Below, one piece after another: positions 915-14,659 of a stretch of 36,019 nt of DNA. The first letter of the stretch is position 1. Each line of letters begins with the position of its first letter. Position numbers and translations under genes: made by a program. Below the pieces are notes generated by a model that was not told the origin of the DNA, searched no databases, and saw only the letters and a list, made by a program, of their open reading frames with translations. The DNA is from a virus (taxonomy: Duplodnaviria; Heunggongvirae; Uroviricota; Caudoviricetes), in the IMG/VR virus record IMGVR_UViG_2537561980_000006; one strand, 5' to 3'.

Positions 915-1169
915 GATAAAGCTAGCATGCCAACGGTATACAGCGAGTCGCTCTTTGTGGAGGTGACGATTACCTAACAATCGGTCGATTCGTTTGATGT
1001 TATGTTTTGTTCTCGCTTTGGTTGGCAGGTTACGGCCAAGTTCGGTAAGAGTGAGAGTTTTACAGTCAAGTAATGCGTGGCAAGCCAACGTTAAGCTGTT
1101 GAGTCGTTTTAAGTGTAATTCGGGGCAGAATTGGTAAAGAGAGTCGTGTAAAATATCGAGTTCGCACAT
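915..1169 (-). pseudogene. tnp: IS10 transposase N-terminal fragment (85 codons), truncated at the IS junction
   Basis: ATG at 1169 (minus) encodes MCELDILHDSLYQFCPELHLKRLNSLTLACHALLDCK..WHASFI, then diverges where the other IS copy's end begins. Confidence 0.8.
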
Positions 1170-1230
1170 CTTGTTGTCTGATTATTGATTTTTCGCGAAA
1201 CCATTTGATCATATGACAAGATGTGTATCC
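1162..1230 (+). ncRNA. Predicted RNA-OUT antisense RNA of IS10 (position inferred from IS10 coordinates)
   Basis: Established IS10 biology: pOUT transcript starts ~nt 115 and runs toward the outside end, overlapping the transposase 5' end; mapped onto window coordinates, not independently detected. Confidence 0.4.
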
Positions 1231-1814
1231 ACCTTAACTTAATGATTTTTACCAAAATCATTAGGGGATTCATCAGTGCGGTGCCTGGTGCCTCCAGGTG
1301 ACGTTAACCAGTTAACAATTAACGCCGGATACAGAGAATCCACCCATAACACTGTTTTTGGTTTTAACTGTTCCGCGTGCGCTTAGCCGCATTCACCGCA
1401 TCACAAAATTCACTTTAAAAAGGGCGGCAGAGCAGTCACGGAGTAAAACTGATACCGCCAAACGTCACCAGAAAATTGATAACAGAGGGCGTTGCAGCGG
1501 GGTTGTCACTTAAGCGTATGGTCAACCTGACAACCAGGTGTCCTCAACGGGGAAGGAATAACCCCGCCATACTTACCGCCGCGCCATTTCGCGGAGTGCC
1601 ACAACCGGAAGCGCACGGCCGACGAAAATTTAACGACAGGCTATCTATGAACCAGCTACCTCGCCGTGCGCTTTCGCGTTATGGTCTGACTTTTCATGGA
1701 AATATCCTTTCAGTAAACTGTCAGTGCCGGATGCTCACCCGTGTCCGGCGCACGCACTCCACCTCACCCGTGGAGAACTCCTTAATTACCAACCTTAGCT
1801 TCGTTGGTTAGCTA

Positions 1815-8825: not shown

Positions 8826-9085
8826 CTAATCGTTATGTCAATTAATTACAATAACGACTTATCATGGTGAGCAAAAACGGTTTGCGGGAAAAGGAGAGTT
8901 AAGTAGAATTGCTGCGGGTGCTTGAGGCTATCTGCCTCGGGCATGAACACCAAAAGGCAGATAGAGAAAAGCCCCAGTTAACATTACGCGTCCTGCAAGA
9001 CGCTTAACATTAATCTGAGGCCCAATCTATGTCTCACAAATGTAGGTTAGCCTCTTACGTGCCGAAAGGCAAGGAGAAGCAGGCT

Positions 9086-9241
9086 ATGAAGCAGCAAAAG
9101 GCGATGTTAATCGCCCTGATCGTCATCTGTTTAACCGTCATAGTGACGGTACTGGTAACGAGGAAAGACCTCTGCGAGGTACGAATCCGAACCGGCCAGA
9201 CGGAGGTCGCTGTCTTCACAGCTTACGAACCTGAGGAGTAA
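9086..9241 (+). CDS. Hok/Gef-family type I toxin (51 aa)
   Basis: MKQQKAMLIALIVICLTVIVTVLVTRKDLCEVRIRTGQTEVAVFTAYEPEE: single TM helix and the conserved Hok C-terminal region; in-frame upstream extension from 9029. Confidence 0.8.
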   Translation: MKQQKAMLIALIVICLTVIVTVLVTRKDLCEVRIRTGQTEVAVFTAYEPEE

Positions 9242-11415: not shown

Positions 11416-11775
11416 ATGCGTATAGAGTTTGTTTTGCCTTATCCGCCGACGGTGAATACTTACTGGCGACGTCGTGGCAACACATATTTTGTATCAAAAG
11501 TCGGTGAGCGTTATCGCCGTGATGTGGCACTAATTGTTCGCCAGCAGCGGTTGAAATTAAACCTGTCCGGAAGGCTGGCAATAAAAATTATTGCAGAGCC
11601 ACCGGATAAGCGCCGCCGCGACCTGGACAATATCCTGAAGGCACCACTGGATGCGCTGACGCATGCCGGACTTCTCATAGACGACGAGCAGTTTGATGAA
11701 ATCAATATTGTGCGCGGACTGCCTGTTCCTGGTGGTCGGCTGGGGATAAAAATCACAGAACTGGAGTGCGCATGA
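11416..11775 (+). CDS. rusA: Holliday junction resolvase RusA
   Basis: 119 aa with RusA-family features (TVNTYWRRRG.., DKRRRDLDNILKAPLDALTHAGLLIDDEQ). Confidence 0.8.
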   Translation: MRIEFVLPYPPTVNTYWRRRGNTYFVSKVGERYRRDVALIVRQQRLKLNLSGRLAIKIIAEPPDKRRRDLDNILKAPLDALTHAGLLIDDEQFDEINIVRGLPVPGGRLGIKITELECA

Positions 11776-12461
11776 ATAACCAGTATTTACAGTTTGTGCG
11801 TGAGCAGCTCATTATCGCTACCGCTGATTTGAGTGGGGCAACAAAAGGTCAGCTTGAAGCCTGGCAGGAGAATGCCATGTTTGATACAGGGCGTTACAGG
11901 CGTAAAAAAATCCGGTACCGCGATGAAGTGACTGGAAGAATGATAACGCGGGATAGTCCACCGATACCGGGAAAACAATCACTGGCGAAAGGCTCATCAA
12001 TTGCTCTGGTAAGTCAGGTTGAGTTTTCGACATCATCATGGCGACGGGCAGTTCTGTCTCTTGAAGAACATCATAAAGCCTGGTTGTTGTGGTGTTACAG
12101 CGGGAGTATTTGTTGGGAATATCAGATCGCGATAACACAGTGGGCGTGGAATGAATTTAATACTCAATCCGGTACCAGAAAAATTGCAGGGAAAACGCAG
12201 GAACGCCTGAAAAAATTAATCTGGCTGGCGGCGCAGGCATTAAAAGCAGAACTTTTTGGTGGGGAAGGTTATGAATACCAGGAGCTGGCATTACTGGCGG
12301 GAGTGACAACTAAAAACTGGTCCAAAACATTTACTCGTCACTGGGTTGCAATGAAACACATTTTTCACCGACTTGATAGTGAGGCTTTATTGTTTGTAAT
12401 GAGAACACGTTCAAAACAAAAGGCGGCATTTTCAAAGCAAAGTGTTGCAAAAGTAGATTGA
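11772..12461 (+). CDS. Late-gene antiterminator, Q-type (QuuQ-like)
   Basis: 229 aa directly upstream of a promoter / short transcript / terminator and the lysis and morphogenesis genes; family assignment by position and size. Confidence 0.55.
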   Translation: MNNQYLQFVREQLIIATADLSGATKGQLEAWQENAMFDTGRYRRKKIRYRDEVTGRMITRDSPPIPGKQSLAKGSSIALVSQVEFSTSSWRRAVLSLEEHHKAWLLWCYSGSICWEYQIAITQWAWNEFNTQSGTRKIAGKTQERLKKLIWLAAQALKAELFGGEGYEYQELALLAGVTTKNWSKTFTRHWVAMKHIFHRLDSEALLFVMRTRSKQKAAFSKQSVAKVD

Positions 12462-12473: not shown

Positions 12474-12524
12474 TCATGCAAATCTGATATTTTGCCGATT
12501 TTGTACGTGATGGCAAAAGCAAAC

Positions 12525-12551
12525 AAAACCCGCCCACAAGCGGGTTTTTTG
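12525..12551 (+). terminator. Intrinsic terminator (tR'-like)
   Basis: CCCGC-CCACAA-GCGGG flanked by A4 upstream and T6 downstream. Confidence 0.6.
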
Positions 12552-12617: not shown

Positions 12618-12646
12618 TTGCAACATTGATTTCGTAACGTTATTAT
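12618..12646 (+). promoter_or_regulatory. Candidate promoter for the tRNA cluster
   Basis: TTGCAA (12618-12623), 17-nt spacer, TATTAT (12641-12646), ~9 nt before the first tRNA. Confidence 0.4.
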
Positions 12647-12655
12647 CCTGCGCCC

Positions 12656-12731
12656 GGCCCTTTAGCTCAGTGGTGAGAGCGAGCGACTCATAATCGCCAG
12701 GTCGCTGGTTCAAATCCAGCAAGGGCCACCA
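12656..12731 (+). tRNA. tRNA with CAU anticodon (Ile2-lysidine type or Met)
   Basis: Cloverleaf folded by hand: acceptor GGCCCTT/AAGGGCC, loop CUCAUAA, T-loop TTCAAAT, 3' CCA; close to E. coli ileX-type sequence as I recall it. Confidence 0.8.
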
Positions 12732-12732
12732 G

Positions 12733-12809
12733 CCGCCACTAGCTCATCAGGAAAGAGCGTCAACCCTTTAAGTTGAGTGTGCGAGGTTCGAGTCCCCGGT
12801 GGCGGTCCA
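12733..12809 (+). tRNA. tRNA with UUU anticodon (Lys-like) and unusual C at position 33
   Basis: Acceptor CCGCCAC/GTGGCGG, anticodon stem TCAAC/GTTGA, loop CCTTTAA, T-loop TTCGAGT, 3' CCA. Confidence 0.6.
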
Positions 12810-12811
12810 GT

Positions 12812-12887
<76 letters not shown>

Positions 12888-12890
12888 TAT

Positions 12891-12965
<75 letters not shown>

Positions 12966-13232
12966 GCAGAGGACGATTGATACTAGGTTGTGTTAGGCAC
13001 TGACACATTTTATGTGGGGCGTTTTTCCTGACTCCTTACCTCGCCCTGTACTGTAAGGAGTGATATCGCTTGCAGCACCAGTGCCATTTTTTACGTCACC
13101 GGAATGGTGCATTATTGGTAGAGATTTGCAATGTTTCTGGCAGGGGCCGATGATGCATCATTCTGGTGTTGTAAATAACACCATGACATTGAGATTAATC
13201 ATATATTAAGCAAAACCTGGAAATGCATCCTT

Positions 13233-13258
13233 AACCGCCTCTATCGGGCGGTTTTTTT
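13233..13258 (+). terminator. Intrinsic terminator
   Basis: AACCGCC-TCTATC-GGGCGGTT then T7. Confidence 0.6.
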
Positions 13259-13581
13259 ATTCTGAACTCAGAAAAGAATACACGGGCATTGATATTACCC
13301 GTGTGGCAAGGCCATGAAAGCTAATAATGAACTGAGCGCAAAAAAAGCGCGGCTGTCGGATTAACGCCGCGGGACAAAGTCCGTGAAGAAGAATAAGCAT
13401 CAGTCTCCTCCAGGAGACGATTTGATATTACTAAGCTTTAAAAATGGTTTAAATCCCCGGATTAACCTTAATTTCAGATAAGCTTTATTTCATTTTCTCC
13501 GAGCCACGTCAGGCGCACATCACATCAGATAACACCACATAAAAGGCATCTGCGGGTGTCTTTGATGGGGTGTTTTTTTAC

Positions 13582-13606
13582 GGGCCGCTGGTGGCCCTTT
13601 TTTATT
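13582..13606 (+). terminator. Intrinsic terminator upstream of the lysis genes
   Basis: GGGCC-GCTGGT-GGCCC then TTTTTTATTT. Confidence 0.55.
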
Positions 13607-13621
13607 TACAGGAGAAAAAGT

Positions 13622-14014
13622 ATGTCTGAACCCTTATCCGGTTCCGGCACGGCTGCGGCGCTCGGCGGGGCGACGGTGTACGGGTTGTTTACCGGAACGG
13701 ATTTCGGGATTGTGTTTGGTGCGTTCGCCGGGGCGTTATTTGTGGCAACGATGCCGCAGGCGCTTTCAGCCTGGCGTGTGGCGGCGCATTTTCTGGTGTC
13801 GTTCATTATCGGTGTGCTGGGCGCAGAGGTTCTGGCATCCTGGCTGGTAAAGCATACAGGGTTTGACGGAGCGCCTGTCGACGCATTGTGTGCAGTGCTG
13901 GTGTCAGTGGTGTCGGTGAAGATTCTGTCGTTCATCCACCAGCAGGATATTGCATCGCTGGTGTCCGGCCTGTTCTCCCGCCTGCGGGGTGGAGGAGGCG
14001 GCAATGTTAAGTAA
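13622..14014 (+). CDS. Putative holin (multi-TM membrane protein, 130 aa)
   Basis: ATG at 13622 after GGAGAAAAAG; several hydrophobic segments; first gene of the lysis cassette. Confidence 0.5.
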   Translation: MSEPLSGSGTAAALGGATVYGLFTGTDFGIVFGAFAGALFVATMPQALSAWRVAAHFLVSFIIGVLGAEVLASWLVKHTGFDGAPVDALCAVLVSVVSVKILSFIHQQDIASLVSGLFSRLRGGGGGNVK

Positions 14015-14279
14015 CCTTCCCGGATTGCTGAATGTGGCGTTATGCACGGTTATCGTGCTGACGCTCTTTTTTTATCGTCGCCGTGATTCCAGACATAAAC
14101 CGCTGATGTCATGGCTGGCCTGGCTGCTGATGCTGCTGTATGCCTTTGCGCCCCTCAGCTATCTGTGTGGTCGCCCATTAGCAACGGGCTGGCTGGAAGT
14201 GTTTTTTAATCTGCTGTTCTGCGTGCTGGTAATACGCGCACGCGGGAACGTCGCAAGAATTTTTCCATTGTTGAGGTGA
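14004..14279 (+). CDS. Putative lysis-associated membrane protein (91 aa; holin/antiholin-like)
   Basis: ATG at 14004 after GGAGGAGG; 2-3 hydrophobic segments; overlaps the upstream gene end. Confidence 0.45.
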   Translation: MLSNLPGLLNVALCTVIVLTLFFYRRRDSRHKPLMSWLAWLLMLLYAFAPLSYLCGRPLATGWLEVFFNLLFCVLVIRARGNVARIFPLLR

Positions 14280-14281
14280 GT

Positions 14282-14659
14282 ATGTCGGGTAAATTCAGAT
14301 TTAGTCGTCGCAGCGAAAAGAATCTGGAGGGCGTCAAACCACAGCTGGTTGCTGTCGTTCGCCGTGCGCTGGAACTGACGGAGGTTGATTTCGGTATTAC
14401 GGAAGGCCTGCGCAGTAAGTATCGCCAGAAACAGCTGGTCGCGGAAGGGAAAAGCCAGACCATGAACAGCCGCCACCTGACCGGTGATGCGGTGGATGTT
14501 GTGGCCTACATTGGCAGCCAGGTGTCATGGGACTGGCCTCTGTACGAGAAAATCGCGCAGGCATTTAAGCAGGCTGCCGCAGAGCTGGGAACTGCCATCG
14601 AATGGGGCGGGGACTGGAAAACACTGAAAGACGGGCCTCACTTTCAGTTGAAACGCTGA
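14282..14659 (+). CDS. Endolysin, L-alanyl-D-glutamate peptidase (peptidase M15 family)
   Basis: GVKPQLVAVVRRALELTEVDFGITEGLRS..HLTGDAVDVVAY..GDW resembles the T5-type M15 endolysin as I recall it; RBS GAGGTGAG. Confidence 0.8.
   Translation: MSGKFRFSRRSEKNLEGVKPQLVAVVRRALELTEVDFGITEGLRSKYRQKQLVAEGKSQTMNSRHLTGDAVDVVAYIGSQVSWDWPLYEKIAQAFKQAAAELGTAIEWGGDWKTLKDGPHFQLKR

What the first reader, a model, noticed from the sequence alone, without database searches (positions are those of the whole stretch)
12733..12809. Second tRNA has C instead of the near-invariant U at position 33
With the only well-paired anticodon stem (TCAAC/GTTGA), the loop is CCUUUAA, giving anticodon UUU but C33. U33 is needed for the canonical U-turn. 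This could be a decaying pseudo-tRNA, a functionally altered tRNA, or a base-call error.
Basis: seen in the sequence. Interest (0 to 1): 0.5.

Follow-up and report, generated by a model that had tools for sequence, protein, structure and literature searches.

The report
Decaying Arg-derived phage tRNA with C33
The odd tRNA is real and common in E. coli prophages, but it is most likely a broken arginine tRNA whose anticodon loop took two point mutations, so databases now label it a lysine tRNA although it probably no longer decodes.

Summary
Window 12733-12809 folds as a cloverleaf with anticodon stem TCAAC/GTTGA and loop CCUUUAA, so C33 is at 12766 and the anticodon is UUU. It is not a base-call error: 799 of 5,426 complete E. 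coli genomes and several sequenced phages carry the allele.

It is the second gene of a lambdoid-phage tRNA cluster (Ile2-CAU, X, Thr-UGU, Gly-UCC) lying between antiterminator Q and the lysis genes. It is homologous to Stx-phage argN and to a canonical tRNA-Arg(UCU) that has the same anticodon stem. Its loop equals that Arg(UCU) loop plus two transitions, U33C and C35U.

Most likely it is a non-decoding relic.
- It lost C35, which ArgRS needs.
- It has U73 and C31-G39, both of which published work shows lower lysine charging.
- It varies like the adjacent noncoding DNA and more than its neighbour tRNAs.
- 10 of 16 alleles carry structural damage, against 2 of 19 in the canonical sister clades.
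- PGAP annotates it in only 18 of 40 sampled carrier genomes, against 39 of 40 for the neighbouring tRNA-Ile.

A rival remains open: a weak UUU decoder that escapes tRNA-Lys-targeting defence nucleases. C33 alone does not prove inactivity. Interest is modest.

The parts
12733..12809 (+). The tRNA in question: slot-2 gene of the cluster, 77 nt, CCA encoded. Acceptor 12733-12739 / 12799-12805, D arm 12742-12758, anticodon stem 12760-12764 / 12772-12776, T arm 12782-12798 (with an A51xC63 mismatch), discriminator U73 at 12806.
   Evidence: ARAGORN; Rfam RF00005 at 44.4 bits with alignment; sequence
12765..12771 (+). Anticodon loop CCUUUAA: C32 12765, C33 12766, anticodon UUU 12767-12769, A37 12770, A38 12771. 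Differs from the canonical Arg(UCU) loop CUUCUAA on the same stem only at positions 33 and 35.
12656..12731 (+). Slot 1: tRNA with anticodon CAU, homologous to ileZ; PGAP names it tRNA-Ile. One base separates it from the tRNA in question.
12812..12887 (+). Slot 3: tRNA-Thr(UGU), 71.4 bits, two bases downstream of the tRNA in question. Its anticodon arm keeps the motifs cleaved by PARIS AriB and P2 Old.
   Evidence: motifs from PMC12409363 and PMC12445682
12891..12965 (+). Slot 4: tRNA-Gly(UCC), 65.6 bits.
12618..12646 (+). Promoter-like site (TTGCAA, 17 nt, TATTAT) ending 10 nt upstream of the first tRNA. Consensus match only.
12525..12548 (.). GC-rich hairpin flanked by A and T runs, terminator-like, between the Q gene and the tRNA cluster. 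This is the position of the late-leader terminator in lambdoid phages (inference).
11766..12461 (+). Antiterminator Q-like gene immediately upstream. It places the tRNA cluster in the late-operon leader.
   Evidence: PHROG 304, E = 2e-106
13556..14659 (+). Lysis genes downstream: two holin-family ORFs (13556-14014 and 13950-14279) and an endolysin (14276-14659).
   Evidence: PHROGs 198, 217 and 465

Best explanation
The gene is the second member of a four-tRNA cluster carried in the late-operon leader of lambdoid (pro)phages. It descends from a phage tRNA-Arg: it is homologous to argN (anticodon UCG) of Stx phages and, in its anticodon arm, to a canonical tRNA-Arg(UCU) that fills the same slot in sister phages. 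Two transitions in the anticodon loop, U33 to C and C35 to U, turned CUUCUAA into CCUUUAA. The RNA is probably still transcribed with its neighbours and still folds as a cloverleaf, so RNase P can cut it out (inferred). As a decoder it is most likely dead or nearly so. It lost C35, a major ArgRS determinant. It lacks A73 and has C31-G39, both of which lower lysine charging by E. coli LysRS. It also lacks the U-turn uridine. Since these changes it has drifted like noncoding DNA, and many lineages now carry copies with further damage. Annotation pipelines that read only the anticodon call the intact copies tRNA-Lys. Shown here: the homology, the two-step loop difference, the relaxed constraint and the damaged alleles. 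Inferred: poor aminoacylation, loss of decoding, and continued processing.
For: Homology and slot: the cluster aligns with ileZ-argN of Stx phages. A canonical tRNA-Arg(UCU) with the identical anticodon stem TCAAC/GTTGA sits in the same Ile-X-Thr-Gly slot. The arm AGAGC-GTCAAC-CTTCTAA-GTTGAG is also an Arg(UCU) arm in unrelated phages, one with the same CAU-UCU-UGU gene order. Identity elements, from the literature: bacterial Arg identity needs A20, C35 and U/G36; Lys identity needs all three anticodon bases plus A73, and any replacement of A73 lowers charging (PMC9976931); C31-G39 in E. coli tRNA-Lys lowers lysine acceptance about 100-fold (PMC1483225). The window tRNA has U35, U73 and C31-G39. 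Relaxed constraint: in 30 loci sharing the upstream module, positions 1-52 have S/len 0.115 and pi 0.023, equal to the adjacent noncoding leader (0.129, 0.025), whereas the three flanking tRNAs have 0.044 (p = 0.002 versus noncoding). In an independent sample anchored on the Thr-Gly junction, 15 of 77 sites vary versus 20 of 199 in the neighbours (p = 0.044). Damaged alleles (new mismatches, U8C, G18A, a D-stem deletion): 10 of 16 alleles and 21 of 68 copies in the C33 clade, against 2 of 19 alleles and 2 of 82 copies in the argN and Arg(UCU) clades (p = 0.003 and 1e-6). The canonical clades change by compensatory pairs (3:70, 7:66, 30:40, 27:43, 51:63); the C33 clade shows only one-sided changes. 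Damaged copies drop out of the Rfam hit list although their neighbours still score 57-74 bits. PGAP annotates the gene in 18 of 40 sampled carrier genomes, versus 39 of 40 for the adjacent tRNA-Ile and 16 of 16 for the Arg(UCU) sister allele.
Against: The commonest allele (38 of 68 sampled copies, identical to the window) still has an intact cloverleaf, conserved U8, A14, G18, G19 and T-loop, and an encoded CCA. The four changes unique to this lineage (A17, A20a, C33, U35) all lie in loops and none in stems, which hints at structural constraint when the allele arose (about 4% by chance on my rough estimate). The allele is far more common (799 genomes) than its intact Arg(UCU) sister (16 genomes). 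Induced phages 689R5 and 606R7 carry the intact allele. C33 is compatible with function in yeast tRNA-Leu(GAG) (PMC13492127). A UUU anticodon can be enough for some lysine charging (PMC9976931). The diversity tests rest on tens of related haplotypes with few independent mutations, and many carrier prophages may be defective as a whole. No expression or charging data were available.
Confidence: 0.6

Rival explanations
1. It is a working, if weak, lysine tRNA that reads AAA/AAG, made by an anticodon shift from tRNA-Arg(UCU). Its value to the phage is that its foreign body and altered anticodon arm escape host or rival-phage nucleases that destroy tRNA-Lys(UUU), such as PARIS AriB, P2 Old, PrrC or RloC. 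It would then work like the T5 tRNA-Lys that neutralises PARIS.
For: The anticodon UUU and loop positions 32, 34-38 are those I recall for E. coli tRNA-Lys (recalled, not checked with tools). AriB cuts at U36-A-A-U-C|A41; the window tRNA has U36-A-A-G-U-U41 (PMC12409363). P2 Old, the classic anti-lambda system, needs paired CNG motifs at 28-30 and 40-42; argN has CAG/CUG but this tRNA has CAA/UUG (PMC12445682). PrrC cuts 3' of U33, the very base that is changed (PMC2610378). The two main AriB targets, Lys(UUU) and Thr(UGU), are adjacent in this cluster. The allele is widespread, and intact in induced phages. C33 can be functional (PMC13492127).
Against: C31-G39 costs about 100-fold in lysine acceptance and non-A73 costs more (PMC1483225, PMC9976931). 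The stem that removes the AriB and Old motifs is inherited from the Arg(UCU) ancestor, so it is not an adaptation of the UUU form. The neighbouring Thr(UGU) keeps both cleavage motifs. More than half of carrier genomes hold copies too damaged for PGAP to call, and diversity equals that of noncoding DNA. No determinant role of position 33 for PrrC was found in the papers read.
Confidence: 0.2
2. The RNA no longer decodes, but its cloverleaf scaffold is kept for another job. One option is a processing unit: with spacers of only 1-3 nt, RNase P cutting at its 5' end makes the 3' end of the upstream tRNA-Ile. Another option is a decoy that soaks up a tRNA-binding enzyme.
For: Spacers are 1, 2 and 3 nt. 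All acceptor-stem variants in the clade are C-to-U changes that keep a G.U pair, and most damaging hits fall in the D arm. Other phages and enterobacteria carry the same acceptor/D/T scaffold with non-decoding anticodon arms (5-, 6- and 11-nt loops), some with compensatory stem changes.
Against: The excess of damage outside the acceptor and T arms is not statistically significant with the events available (my count: 1 versus 6). D-arm damage (U8C, G18A, deletion of U12) would also disturb the L-shape. No direct evidence for processing dependence or decoy activity.
Confidence: 0.12
3. It is a mistranslating tRNA. It keeps A20, the main ArgRS determinant in E. coli, so it could be charged with arginine and insert Arg at Lys codons, with C33 damping its decoding efficiency. 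This would resemble G33 in the Candida tRNA-Ser(CAG).
For: A20 and U36 are retained and U73 is tolerated by bacterial ArgRS (PMC9976931). U33C and C35U always occur together, and no single-hit intermediate was found in IMG/VR or metagenomes. G33 as a damper of an ambiguous tRNA is cited in PMC13492127.
Against: C35 is a major Arg determinant and is lost. There is no evidence of charging. The relaxed constraint argues against any maintained activity.
Confidence: 0.03
4. The C at 12766 is a sequencing or assembly error, or a different fold restores U33.
For: None found.
Against: The identical loop occurs in hundreds of independent assemblies. The covariance model and ARAGORN both give the same 5-bp stem and 7-nt loop.
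Confidence: 0.01

Closest known systems
argN (tRNA-Arg, anticodon UCG) of the ileZ-argN-argO cluster in Stx-converting lambdoid phages
   Same: Same position after ileZ downstream of Q. Same unusual scaffold (C1-G72, U73, U15, A20, same T arm); about 84% identity; similar Rfam score (43.0-53.6 versus 44.4 bits).
   Different: argN has U33, anticodon UCG and stem TCAGC/GCTGG, and its alleles keep the structure through compensatory change. The window gene has C33, UUU and stem TCAAC/GTTGA, and its alleles decay.
Canonical phage tRNA-Arg(UCU) in the same Ile-X-Thr-Gly slot (e.g. E. coli 504838, IMG/VR loci L145/L150/L182/L207)
   Same: Identical anticodon stem, same neighbours, same scaffold. The loop differs at only two positions.
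   Different: It has U33, C35 and G73. PGAP annotates all 16 of 16 genomic copies as tRNA-Arg and none of the 4 sampled alleles is damaged. It is about 50 times rarer in E. coli genomes (16 versus 799).
Phage T5 tRNA-Lys(UUU) that neutralises PARIS (PMC11464382, PMC12409363), and phage tRNAs resistant to P2 Old (PMC12445682)
   Same: A phage-borne tRNA with anticodon UUU whose anticodon stem lacks the nuclease recognition motifs.
   Different: The T5 tRNA is a bona fide lysine tRNA with demonstrated rescue. This one is Arg-derived, has C33, U73 and C31-G39, shows relaxed constraint, and has no functional data.
Natural C33 tRNAs, e.g. yeast tRNA-Leu(GAG) (PMC13492127)
   Same: C instead of U at position 33 in an otherwise normal 7-nt anticodon loop.
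   Different: The yeast tRNA is a conserved, expressed, cognately charged decoder. Here C33 comes together with a change of anticodon away from the body's identity.
Anticodon-shift ('remoulded') tRNA genes and tRNA pseudogenes
   Same: A point mutation in the anticodon changes the apparent isotype while the body keeps the signature of another isotype. The same cluster shows a second case, Thr(UGU) to UUU.
   Different: Successful anticodon shifts give tRNAs that the new synthetase charges well. Here the known LysRS requirements are not met.

Membership tests
Canonical elongator tRNA (Rfam RF00005) | Cloverleaf with 7-bp acceptor stem, D, anticodon and T arms, scoring above the curated threshold | tested here: met
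   44.4 bits against a gathering score of 29, full-length alignment; ARAGORN call. One A51xC63 mismatch in the T stem.
Canonical elongator tRNA (Rfam RF00005) | U at position 33 | tested here: not met
   C at 12766. All 143 tRNAs outside this scaffold family in the fetched loci have U33.
Canonical elongator tRNA (Rfam RF00005) | Purifying selection that preserves pairing and the conserved tertiary nucleotides | tested here: not met
   10 of 16 alleles damaged versus 2 of 19 in sister clades; diversity equals that of noncoding DNA.
E. coli-type tRNA-Lys (class II LysRS substrate) | Anticodon U34 U35 U36 | tested here: met
   UUU at 12767-12769.
E. coli-type tRNA-Lys (class II LysRS substrate) | Discriminator A73 | tested here: not met
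   U73 at 12806. Any replacement of A73 lowers lysine acceptance (PMC9976931).
E. coli-type tRNA-Lys (class II LysRS substrate) | A31-U39 at the bottom of the anticodon stem (C31-G39 lowers kcat/Km about 100-fold) | tested here: not met
   C31 (12764) pairs with G39 (12772); PMC1483225.
E. coli-type tRNA-Lys (class II LysRS substrate) | Actual lysine charging | not testable with these tools
   Needs in vitro aminoacylation or a charged-tRNA assay.
Phage argN / tRNA-Arg family | Sequence homology and the same genomic slot | tested here: met
   Alignments A1-A3; same position after ileZ and downstream of Q.
Phage argN / tRNA-Arg family | Arg identity set: A20, C35, U/G36 and A/G/U73 | tested here: not met
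   A20, U36 and U73 are present, but C35 is replaced by U (identity set from PMC9976931).
Anti-defence phage tRNA (nuclease-resistant surrogate) | Same anticodon as a nuclease target, with substitutions at the cleavage motif | tested here: met
   UUU; U36AAGUU41 instead of UAAUC|A; no CNG motifs at 28-30 or 40-42 (PMC12409363, PMC12445682). The stem is inherited from the Arg(UCU) ancestor.
Anti-defence phage tRNA (nuclease-resistant surrogate) | Is charged, decodes, and rescues infection or toxicity | not testable with these tools
   No functional data. Published identity rules predict poor charging.
tRNA pseudogene / relic | Loss of identity determinants, plus neutral-like evolution with disabling variants segregating | tested here: met
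tRNA pseudogene / relic | Absence of a mature, aminoacylated RNA | not testable with these tools
   Needs tRNA-seq or northern blots with a charging assay.

The most novel reading that the evidence does not exclude
The C33/UUU RNA is an adaptive anti-defence device: a lysine-anticodon tRNA, or an uncharged look-alike, built on an arginine-tRNA body. Its C33 sits at the PrrC scissile site and its stem lacks the motifs that PARIS AriB and P2 Old cleave, so it would survive or titrate tRNA-Lys-directed nucleases during lambdoid phage growth. This would be the first such case in temperate lambdoid phages, and the first to use a non-U33 loop.
Probability: 0.12. Interest if true: 0.7.

Novelty: new member of a known kind. 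Interest (0 to 1): 0.3.

Why it matters
The gene sits in about 15% of complete E. coli genomes, and RefSeq labels it tRNA-Lys whenever the copy is intact enough. If it is an inactivated tRNA-Arg, that label is misleading for tRNA gene counts, codon-adaptation estimates and surveys of phage tRNAs as anti-defence tools. It is also a clean natural example of how a phage tRNA dies: two transitions in the anticodon loop first, then drift, while its neighbours stay conserved. If the minority reading is right, temperate lambdoid phages would join T5-like phages in carrying nuclease-proof tRNAs.

Tried and rejected
- Base-call error: rejected by the prevalence of the allele.
- Alternative fold with U33: rejected, because the covariance model and ARAGORN agree on the 5-bp stem and 7-nt loop. 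The free-energy fold of the bare sequence was uninformative.
- Low Rfam score as evidence of decay: rejected, because canonical argN scores the same.
- My early argument that the G30A/C40U compensatory change shows selection on the UUU form: withdrawn, because the same stem is present in the canonical Arg(UCU) sister and so is inherited.
- Search for single-hit intermediates or revertants (U33 with UUU, or C33 with UCU, on this stem): only unrelated chance matches in IMG/VR. In metagenomes, only genuine Arg(UCU) tRNAs of unrelated phages.
- Recurrent evolution of UUU anticodons in the cluster as evidence of selection: the Thr-to-UUU change is a single allele in 6 of 5,426 genomes that has recombined onto different backgrounds, so it is weak evidence.
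- Literature: no paper in the library mentions ileZ with argN, or the anticodon-arm sequence. The supplement of the coliphage tRNA library screen was not held. No data were found on position 33 as a PrrC determinant.
- A register-shifted reading (U34 as the turn, anticodon UUA reading stop codons): considered and set aside as incompatible with 7-nt loop geometry. Not tested.

Full report
**1. The observation**

ARAGORN finds four adjacent tRNA genes on the + strand: CAU at 12656-12731, UUU at 12733-12809, UGU at 12812-12887 and UCC at 12891-12965.

The Rfam tRNA model aligns it end to end at 44.4 bits (gathering score 29). It pairs UCAAC with GUUGA and leaves the loop CCUUUAA. Reading the sequence directly puts C32 at 12765, C33 at 12766, UUU at 12767-12769 and A37-A38 at 12770-12771. 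The discriminator is U (12806) and CCA is encoded. The T stem has one A51xC63 mismatch.

**2. It is not an error, and the low score is not due to C33**

A 91-nt query around the gene matches 799 of 5,426 complete E. coli genomes. The same loop is present in phages 689R5, 606R7, PhiR47_1 and Evi and in the PPompW prophages.

The three neighbours score 65-72 bits. However, canonical argN of Stx2 phage F349, which has U33, scores only 43.0 bits, and argN of phi296 scores 53.6. The modest score is therefore a trait of this unusual scaffold (C1-G72, U73, U15) and not a result of C33.

Across all loci fetched, ARAGORN distinct tRNA sequences. Of these, 143 have U33, and all 15 exceptions belong to this scaffold family.

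**3. Where it sits**

Upstream are a RusA-like resolvase (11416-11775) and a Q-like antiterminator (11766-12461). Downstream are two holin-family genes and an endolysin. Between Q and the tRNAs lie a terminator-like hairpin (12525-12548) and a promoter-like site (12618-12646). This is the late-operon leader of a lambdoid phage, the position where Stx phages carry ileZ-argN-argO and the toxin genes.

**4. What it descends from**

The gene aligns with argN (anticodon UCG, loop CUUCGAA, stem UCAGC/GCUGG) at about 84% identity.

A sample of 120 IMG/VR loci anchored on the Thr-Gly junction is blind to the state of slot 2. It shows that the slot between tRNA-Ile and tRNA-Thr comes in several forms:
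- the C33/UUU form (48 loci);
- a canonical tRNA-Arg(UCU) with the identical stem UCAAC/GUUGA, loop CUUCUAA and G73 (14 loci);
- a form with a 6-nt loop (4 loci).

An Arg(UCU) allele in E. coli 504838 even shares the window's acceptor stem. The arm AGAGC-GUCAAC-CUUCUAA-GUUGAG also belongs to Arg(UCU) tRNAs of unrelated phages, one with the same CAU-UCU-UGU gene order.

The window's anticodon arm is therefore an Arg(UCU) arm with two transitions, U33C and C35U. No copy with only one of the two changes turned up in IMG/VR or, for U33 versions in the window's own sequence background, in the metagenome collection.

**5. Can it be charged?**

This part rests on published identity rules, not on tests done here.
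- Bacterial ArgRS uses A20, C35, U/G36 and A/G/U73 (PMC9976931). The window tRNA keeps A20, U36 and U73 but has lost C35.
- E. coli LysRS uses all three anticodon bases and A73, and any replacement of A73 lowers charging (PMC9976931).
- Changing A31-U39 to C31-G39 in E. coli tRNA-Lys lowers lysine acceptance about 100-fold (PMC1483225).

The window tRNA has UUU but also U73 and C31-G39. It is thus expected to be a poor substrate for both enzymes.

C33 by itself is weak evidence. Yeast tRNA-Leu(GAG) naturally has C33, and converting it to U33 changes little (PMC13492127).

**6. How it evolves**

- In 30 loci that share the same upstream module (21 haplotypes), positions 1-52 of the gene have 0.115 segregating sites per base and pi 0.023. 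The adjacent noncoding leader has 0.129 and 0.025. The three neighbouring tRNAs together have 0.044, significantly below the noncoding value (p = 0.002).
- In the independent Thr-Gly-anchored sample (48 loci, 23 haplotypes), 15 of 77 sites vary, against 20 of 199 in the neighbours (p = 0.044).
- A census of alleles is sharper. In the argN clade, 2 of 15 alleles are structurally damaged, both singletons. In the Arg(UCU) clade, 0 of 4 are damaged. In the C33 clade, 10 of 16 alleles (21 of 68 copies) carry a new mismatch, U8C, G18A or a one-base deletion in the D stem (p = 0.003 for alleles, 1e-6 for copies).
- The canonical clades vary through compensatory pairs (3:70 GC/AU, 7:66 UA/CG, 30:40 GC/AU, and several types at 27:43 and 51:63). 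The C33 clade shows only one-sided changes.
- Damaged copies fall out of the Rfam hit list while their neighbours still score 57-74 bits.
- In an evenly spaced sample of 40 carrier genomes, PGAP annotates the gene in 18, the adjacent tRNA-Ile in 39, and the Arg(UCU) sister allele in 16 of 16 genomes that have it.
- The authors of phages 689R5 and 606R7 did not annotate it at all. ARAGORN calls it tRNA-Lys in these loci, and the PhiR47_1 and PPompW records annotate it as tRNA-Lys.

**7. Best explanation**

The simplest account is a phage tRNA-Arg(UCU) whose anticodon loop took two hits. It thereby lost its arginine identity without gaining a good lysine identity, and it has since drifted. It persists because it sits inside a compact tRNA module that recombines among lambdoid phages as a unit. 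Spacers of only 1-3 nt may favour keeping a foldable unit for RNase P (inference). I put this at about 0.6.

**8. Caveats and rivals**

- The commonest allele is still a perfect cloverleaf.
- The four lineage-specific changes all lie in loops.
- The allele is about 50 times commoner than its intact Arg(UCU) sister.
- Induced phages carry the intact form.
- The statistics rest on few independent mutations in related sequences.

The main rival is a working UUU decoder that evades tRNA-Lys-directed nucleases.
[quoted passage not shown] P2 Old, the classic anti-lambda system, needs paired CNG motifs in the anticodon stem (PMC12445682). PrrC cuts 3' of U33 (PMC2610378). The window tRNA lacks the AriB and Old motifs and has C at the PrrC site.
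- Against it: the motif-free stem is inherited from the Arg(UCU) ancestor. The neighbouring Thr(UGU) keeps both motifs. The predicted charging defects and the decay pattern also argue against it.

I give this rival about 0.2, a non-decoding scaffold role about 0.12, and a mistranslating Arg-charged tRNA about 0.03.

**9. Comparison with known things, and novelty**

The gene works, or fails, like an anticodon-shifted tRNA gene or a tRNA pseudogene. By descent it is a member of the phage argN/Arg(UCU) family. It fails the membership tests for tRNA-Lys (A73, 31-39 pair) and for a functional tRNA-Arg (C35).

No paper in the library mentions this allele or its anticodon-arm sequence. I rate it a new member of a known kind, of modest interest. 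Its main practical consequence is a probable systematic mis-annotation as tRNA-Lys in hundreds of E. coli genomes.

Noticed in passing
L173 1719-1792; also L183, L192, L206; L136 2762-2835 (Salmonella diarizonae); L141 2-75 (Citrobacter amalonaticus); L033, L045, L068, L107 (81-82 nt forms); L066; L189: The same acceptor/D/T scaffold occurs with non-decoding anticodon arms: 6-nt loops (CCAGGU, CGGGAU, CAGGAU), a roughly 5-nt loop and a roughly 11-nt loop. All four stems stay intact, and some forms have compensatory changes (for example U4-A69 and A10-U25 in L066). ARAGORN labels them tRNA-??? with two-base anticodons. Their conservation across genera suggests that the scaffold may have a role other than decoding.
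   Followed up: partly
L225 588-663 (E. coli 720632); L188; L216: The third tRNA of the cluster, Thr(UGU), has become anticodon UUU through G35U (plus A26G), and PGAP annotates it as tRNA-Lys. It keeps U33, A31-U39 and A73, so it should be a good LysRS substrate. It is a single allele present in 6 of 5,426 E. coli genomes, found next to either an Arg(UCU) or a damaged C33 slot-2 gene.
   Followed up: partly
L004 1632-1708 and L006 1622-1698, compared with window 12760-12776: Canonical argN of Stx phages carries both CNG motifs (C28-A-G30 and C40-U-G42) plus A37, the features reported to make tRNAs substrates of P2 Old. The Arg(UCU) and C33 forms have A30-U40 and lack both motifs. Whether this G-C to A-U switch reflects selection by Old was not tested.
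   Followed up: no
window 12812-12887: The phage tRNA-Thr(UGU) is nearly identical to the host tRNA-Thr(UGU): a 60-nt stretch of the related L225 allele matches 5,421 genomes with two mismatches. It keeps the AriB motif UAAUC|A and both CNG motifs, so it looks like a copy of a host gene and not a nuclease-resistant variant.
   Followed up: partly
window 12477-12550: Weak, sub-threshold Rfam matches to the Salmonella prophage sRNAs isrJ and isrK (24.5 and 22.7 bits) cover the short stretch between the end of Q and the terminator-like hairpin, where lambdoid phages make a short late-leader transcript.
   Followed up: no
window 12966-13555: About 590 nt without an ORF of 60 aa or more on the + strand separate the last tRNA from the first holin gene. 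The stretch holds a terminator-like hairpin at 13233-13253 and a weak CyaR-like match at 13189-13258 (23.5 bits, below threshold). Homology to phage 689R5 ends right after the Gly tRNA, which marks a mosaic boundary.
   Followed up: no
window 8916-9091 (+), 1162-1231 (+), 1422-1473 (-): Curated Rfam hits elsewhere in the window: a sok antitoxin RNA (120 bits), RNA-OUT of IS10 type (98.8 bits) and DicF (76.7 bits).
   Followed up: no
L001 (ON470583), L227 (ON470580), L002 (PV340566), L003 (LC567818), RefSeq genomes: Annotation pipelines disagree on this gene. The authors of 689R5 and 606R7 omit it; the PhiR47_1 and PPompW records and PGAP call it tRNA-Lys. PGAP drops it once U8C or the D-stem deletion is present. 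The PPompW records annotate even the copy with a one-base D-stem deletion as tRNA-Lys.
   Followed up: yes
L006 1892-2097: Phage phi296 carries a strong match to the sRNA STnc100 (158 bits) just downstream of its tRNA cluster. The window has no counterpart.
   Followed up: no
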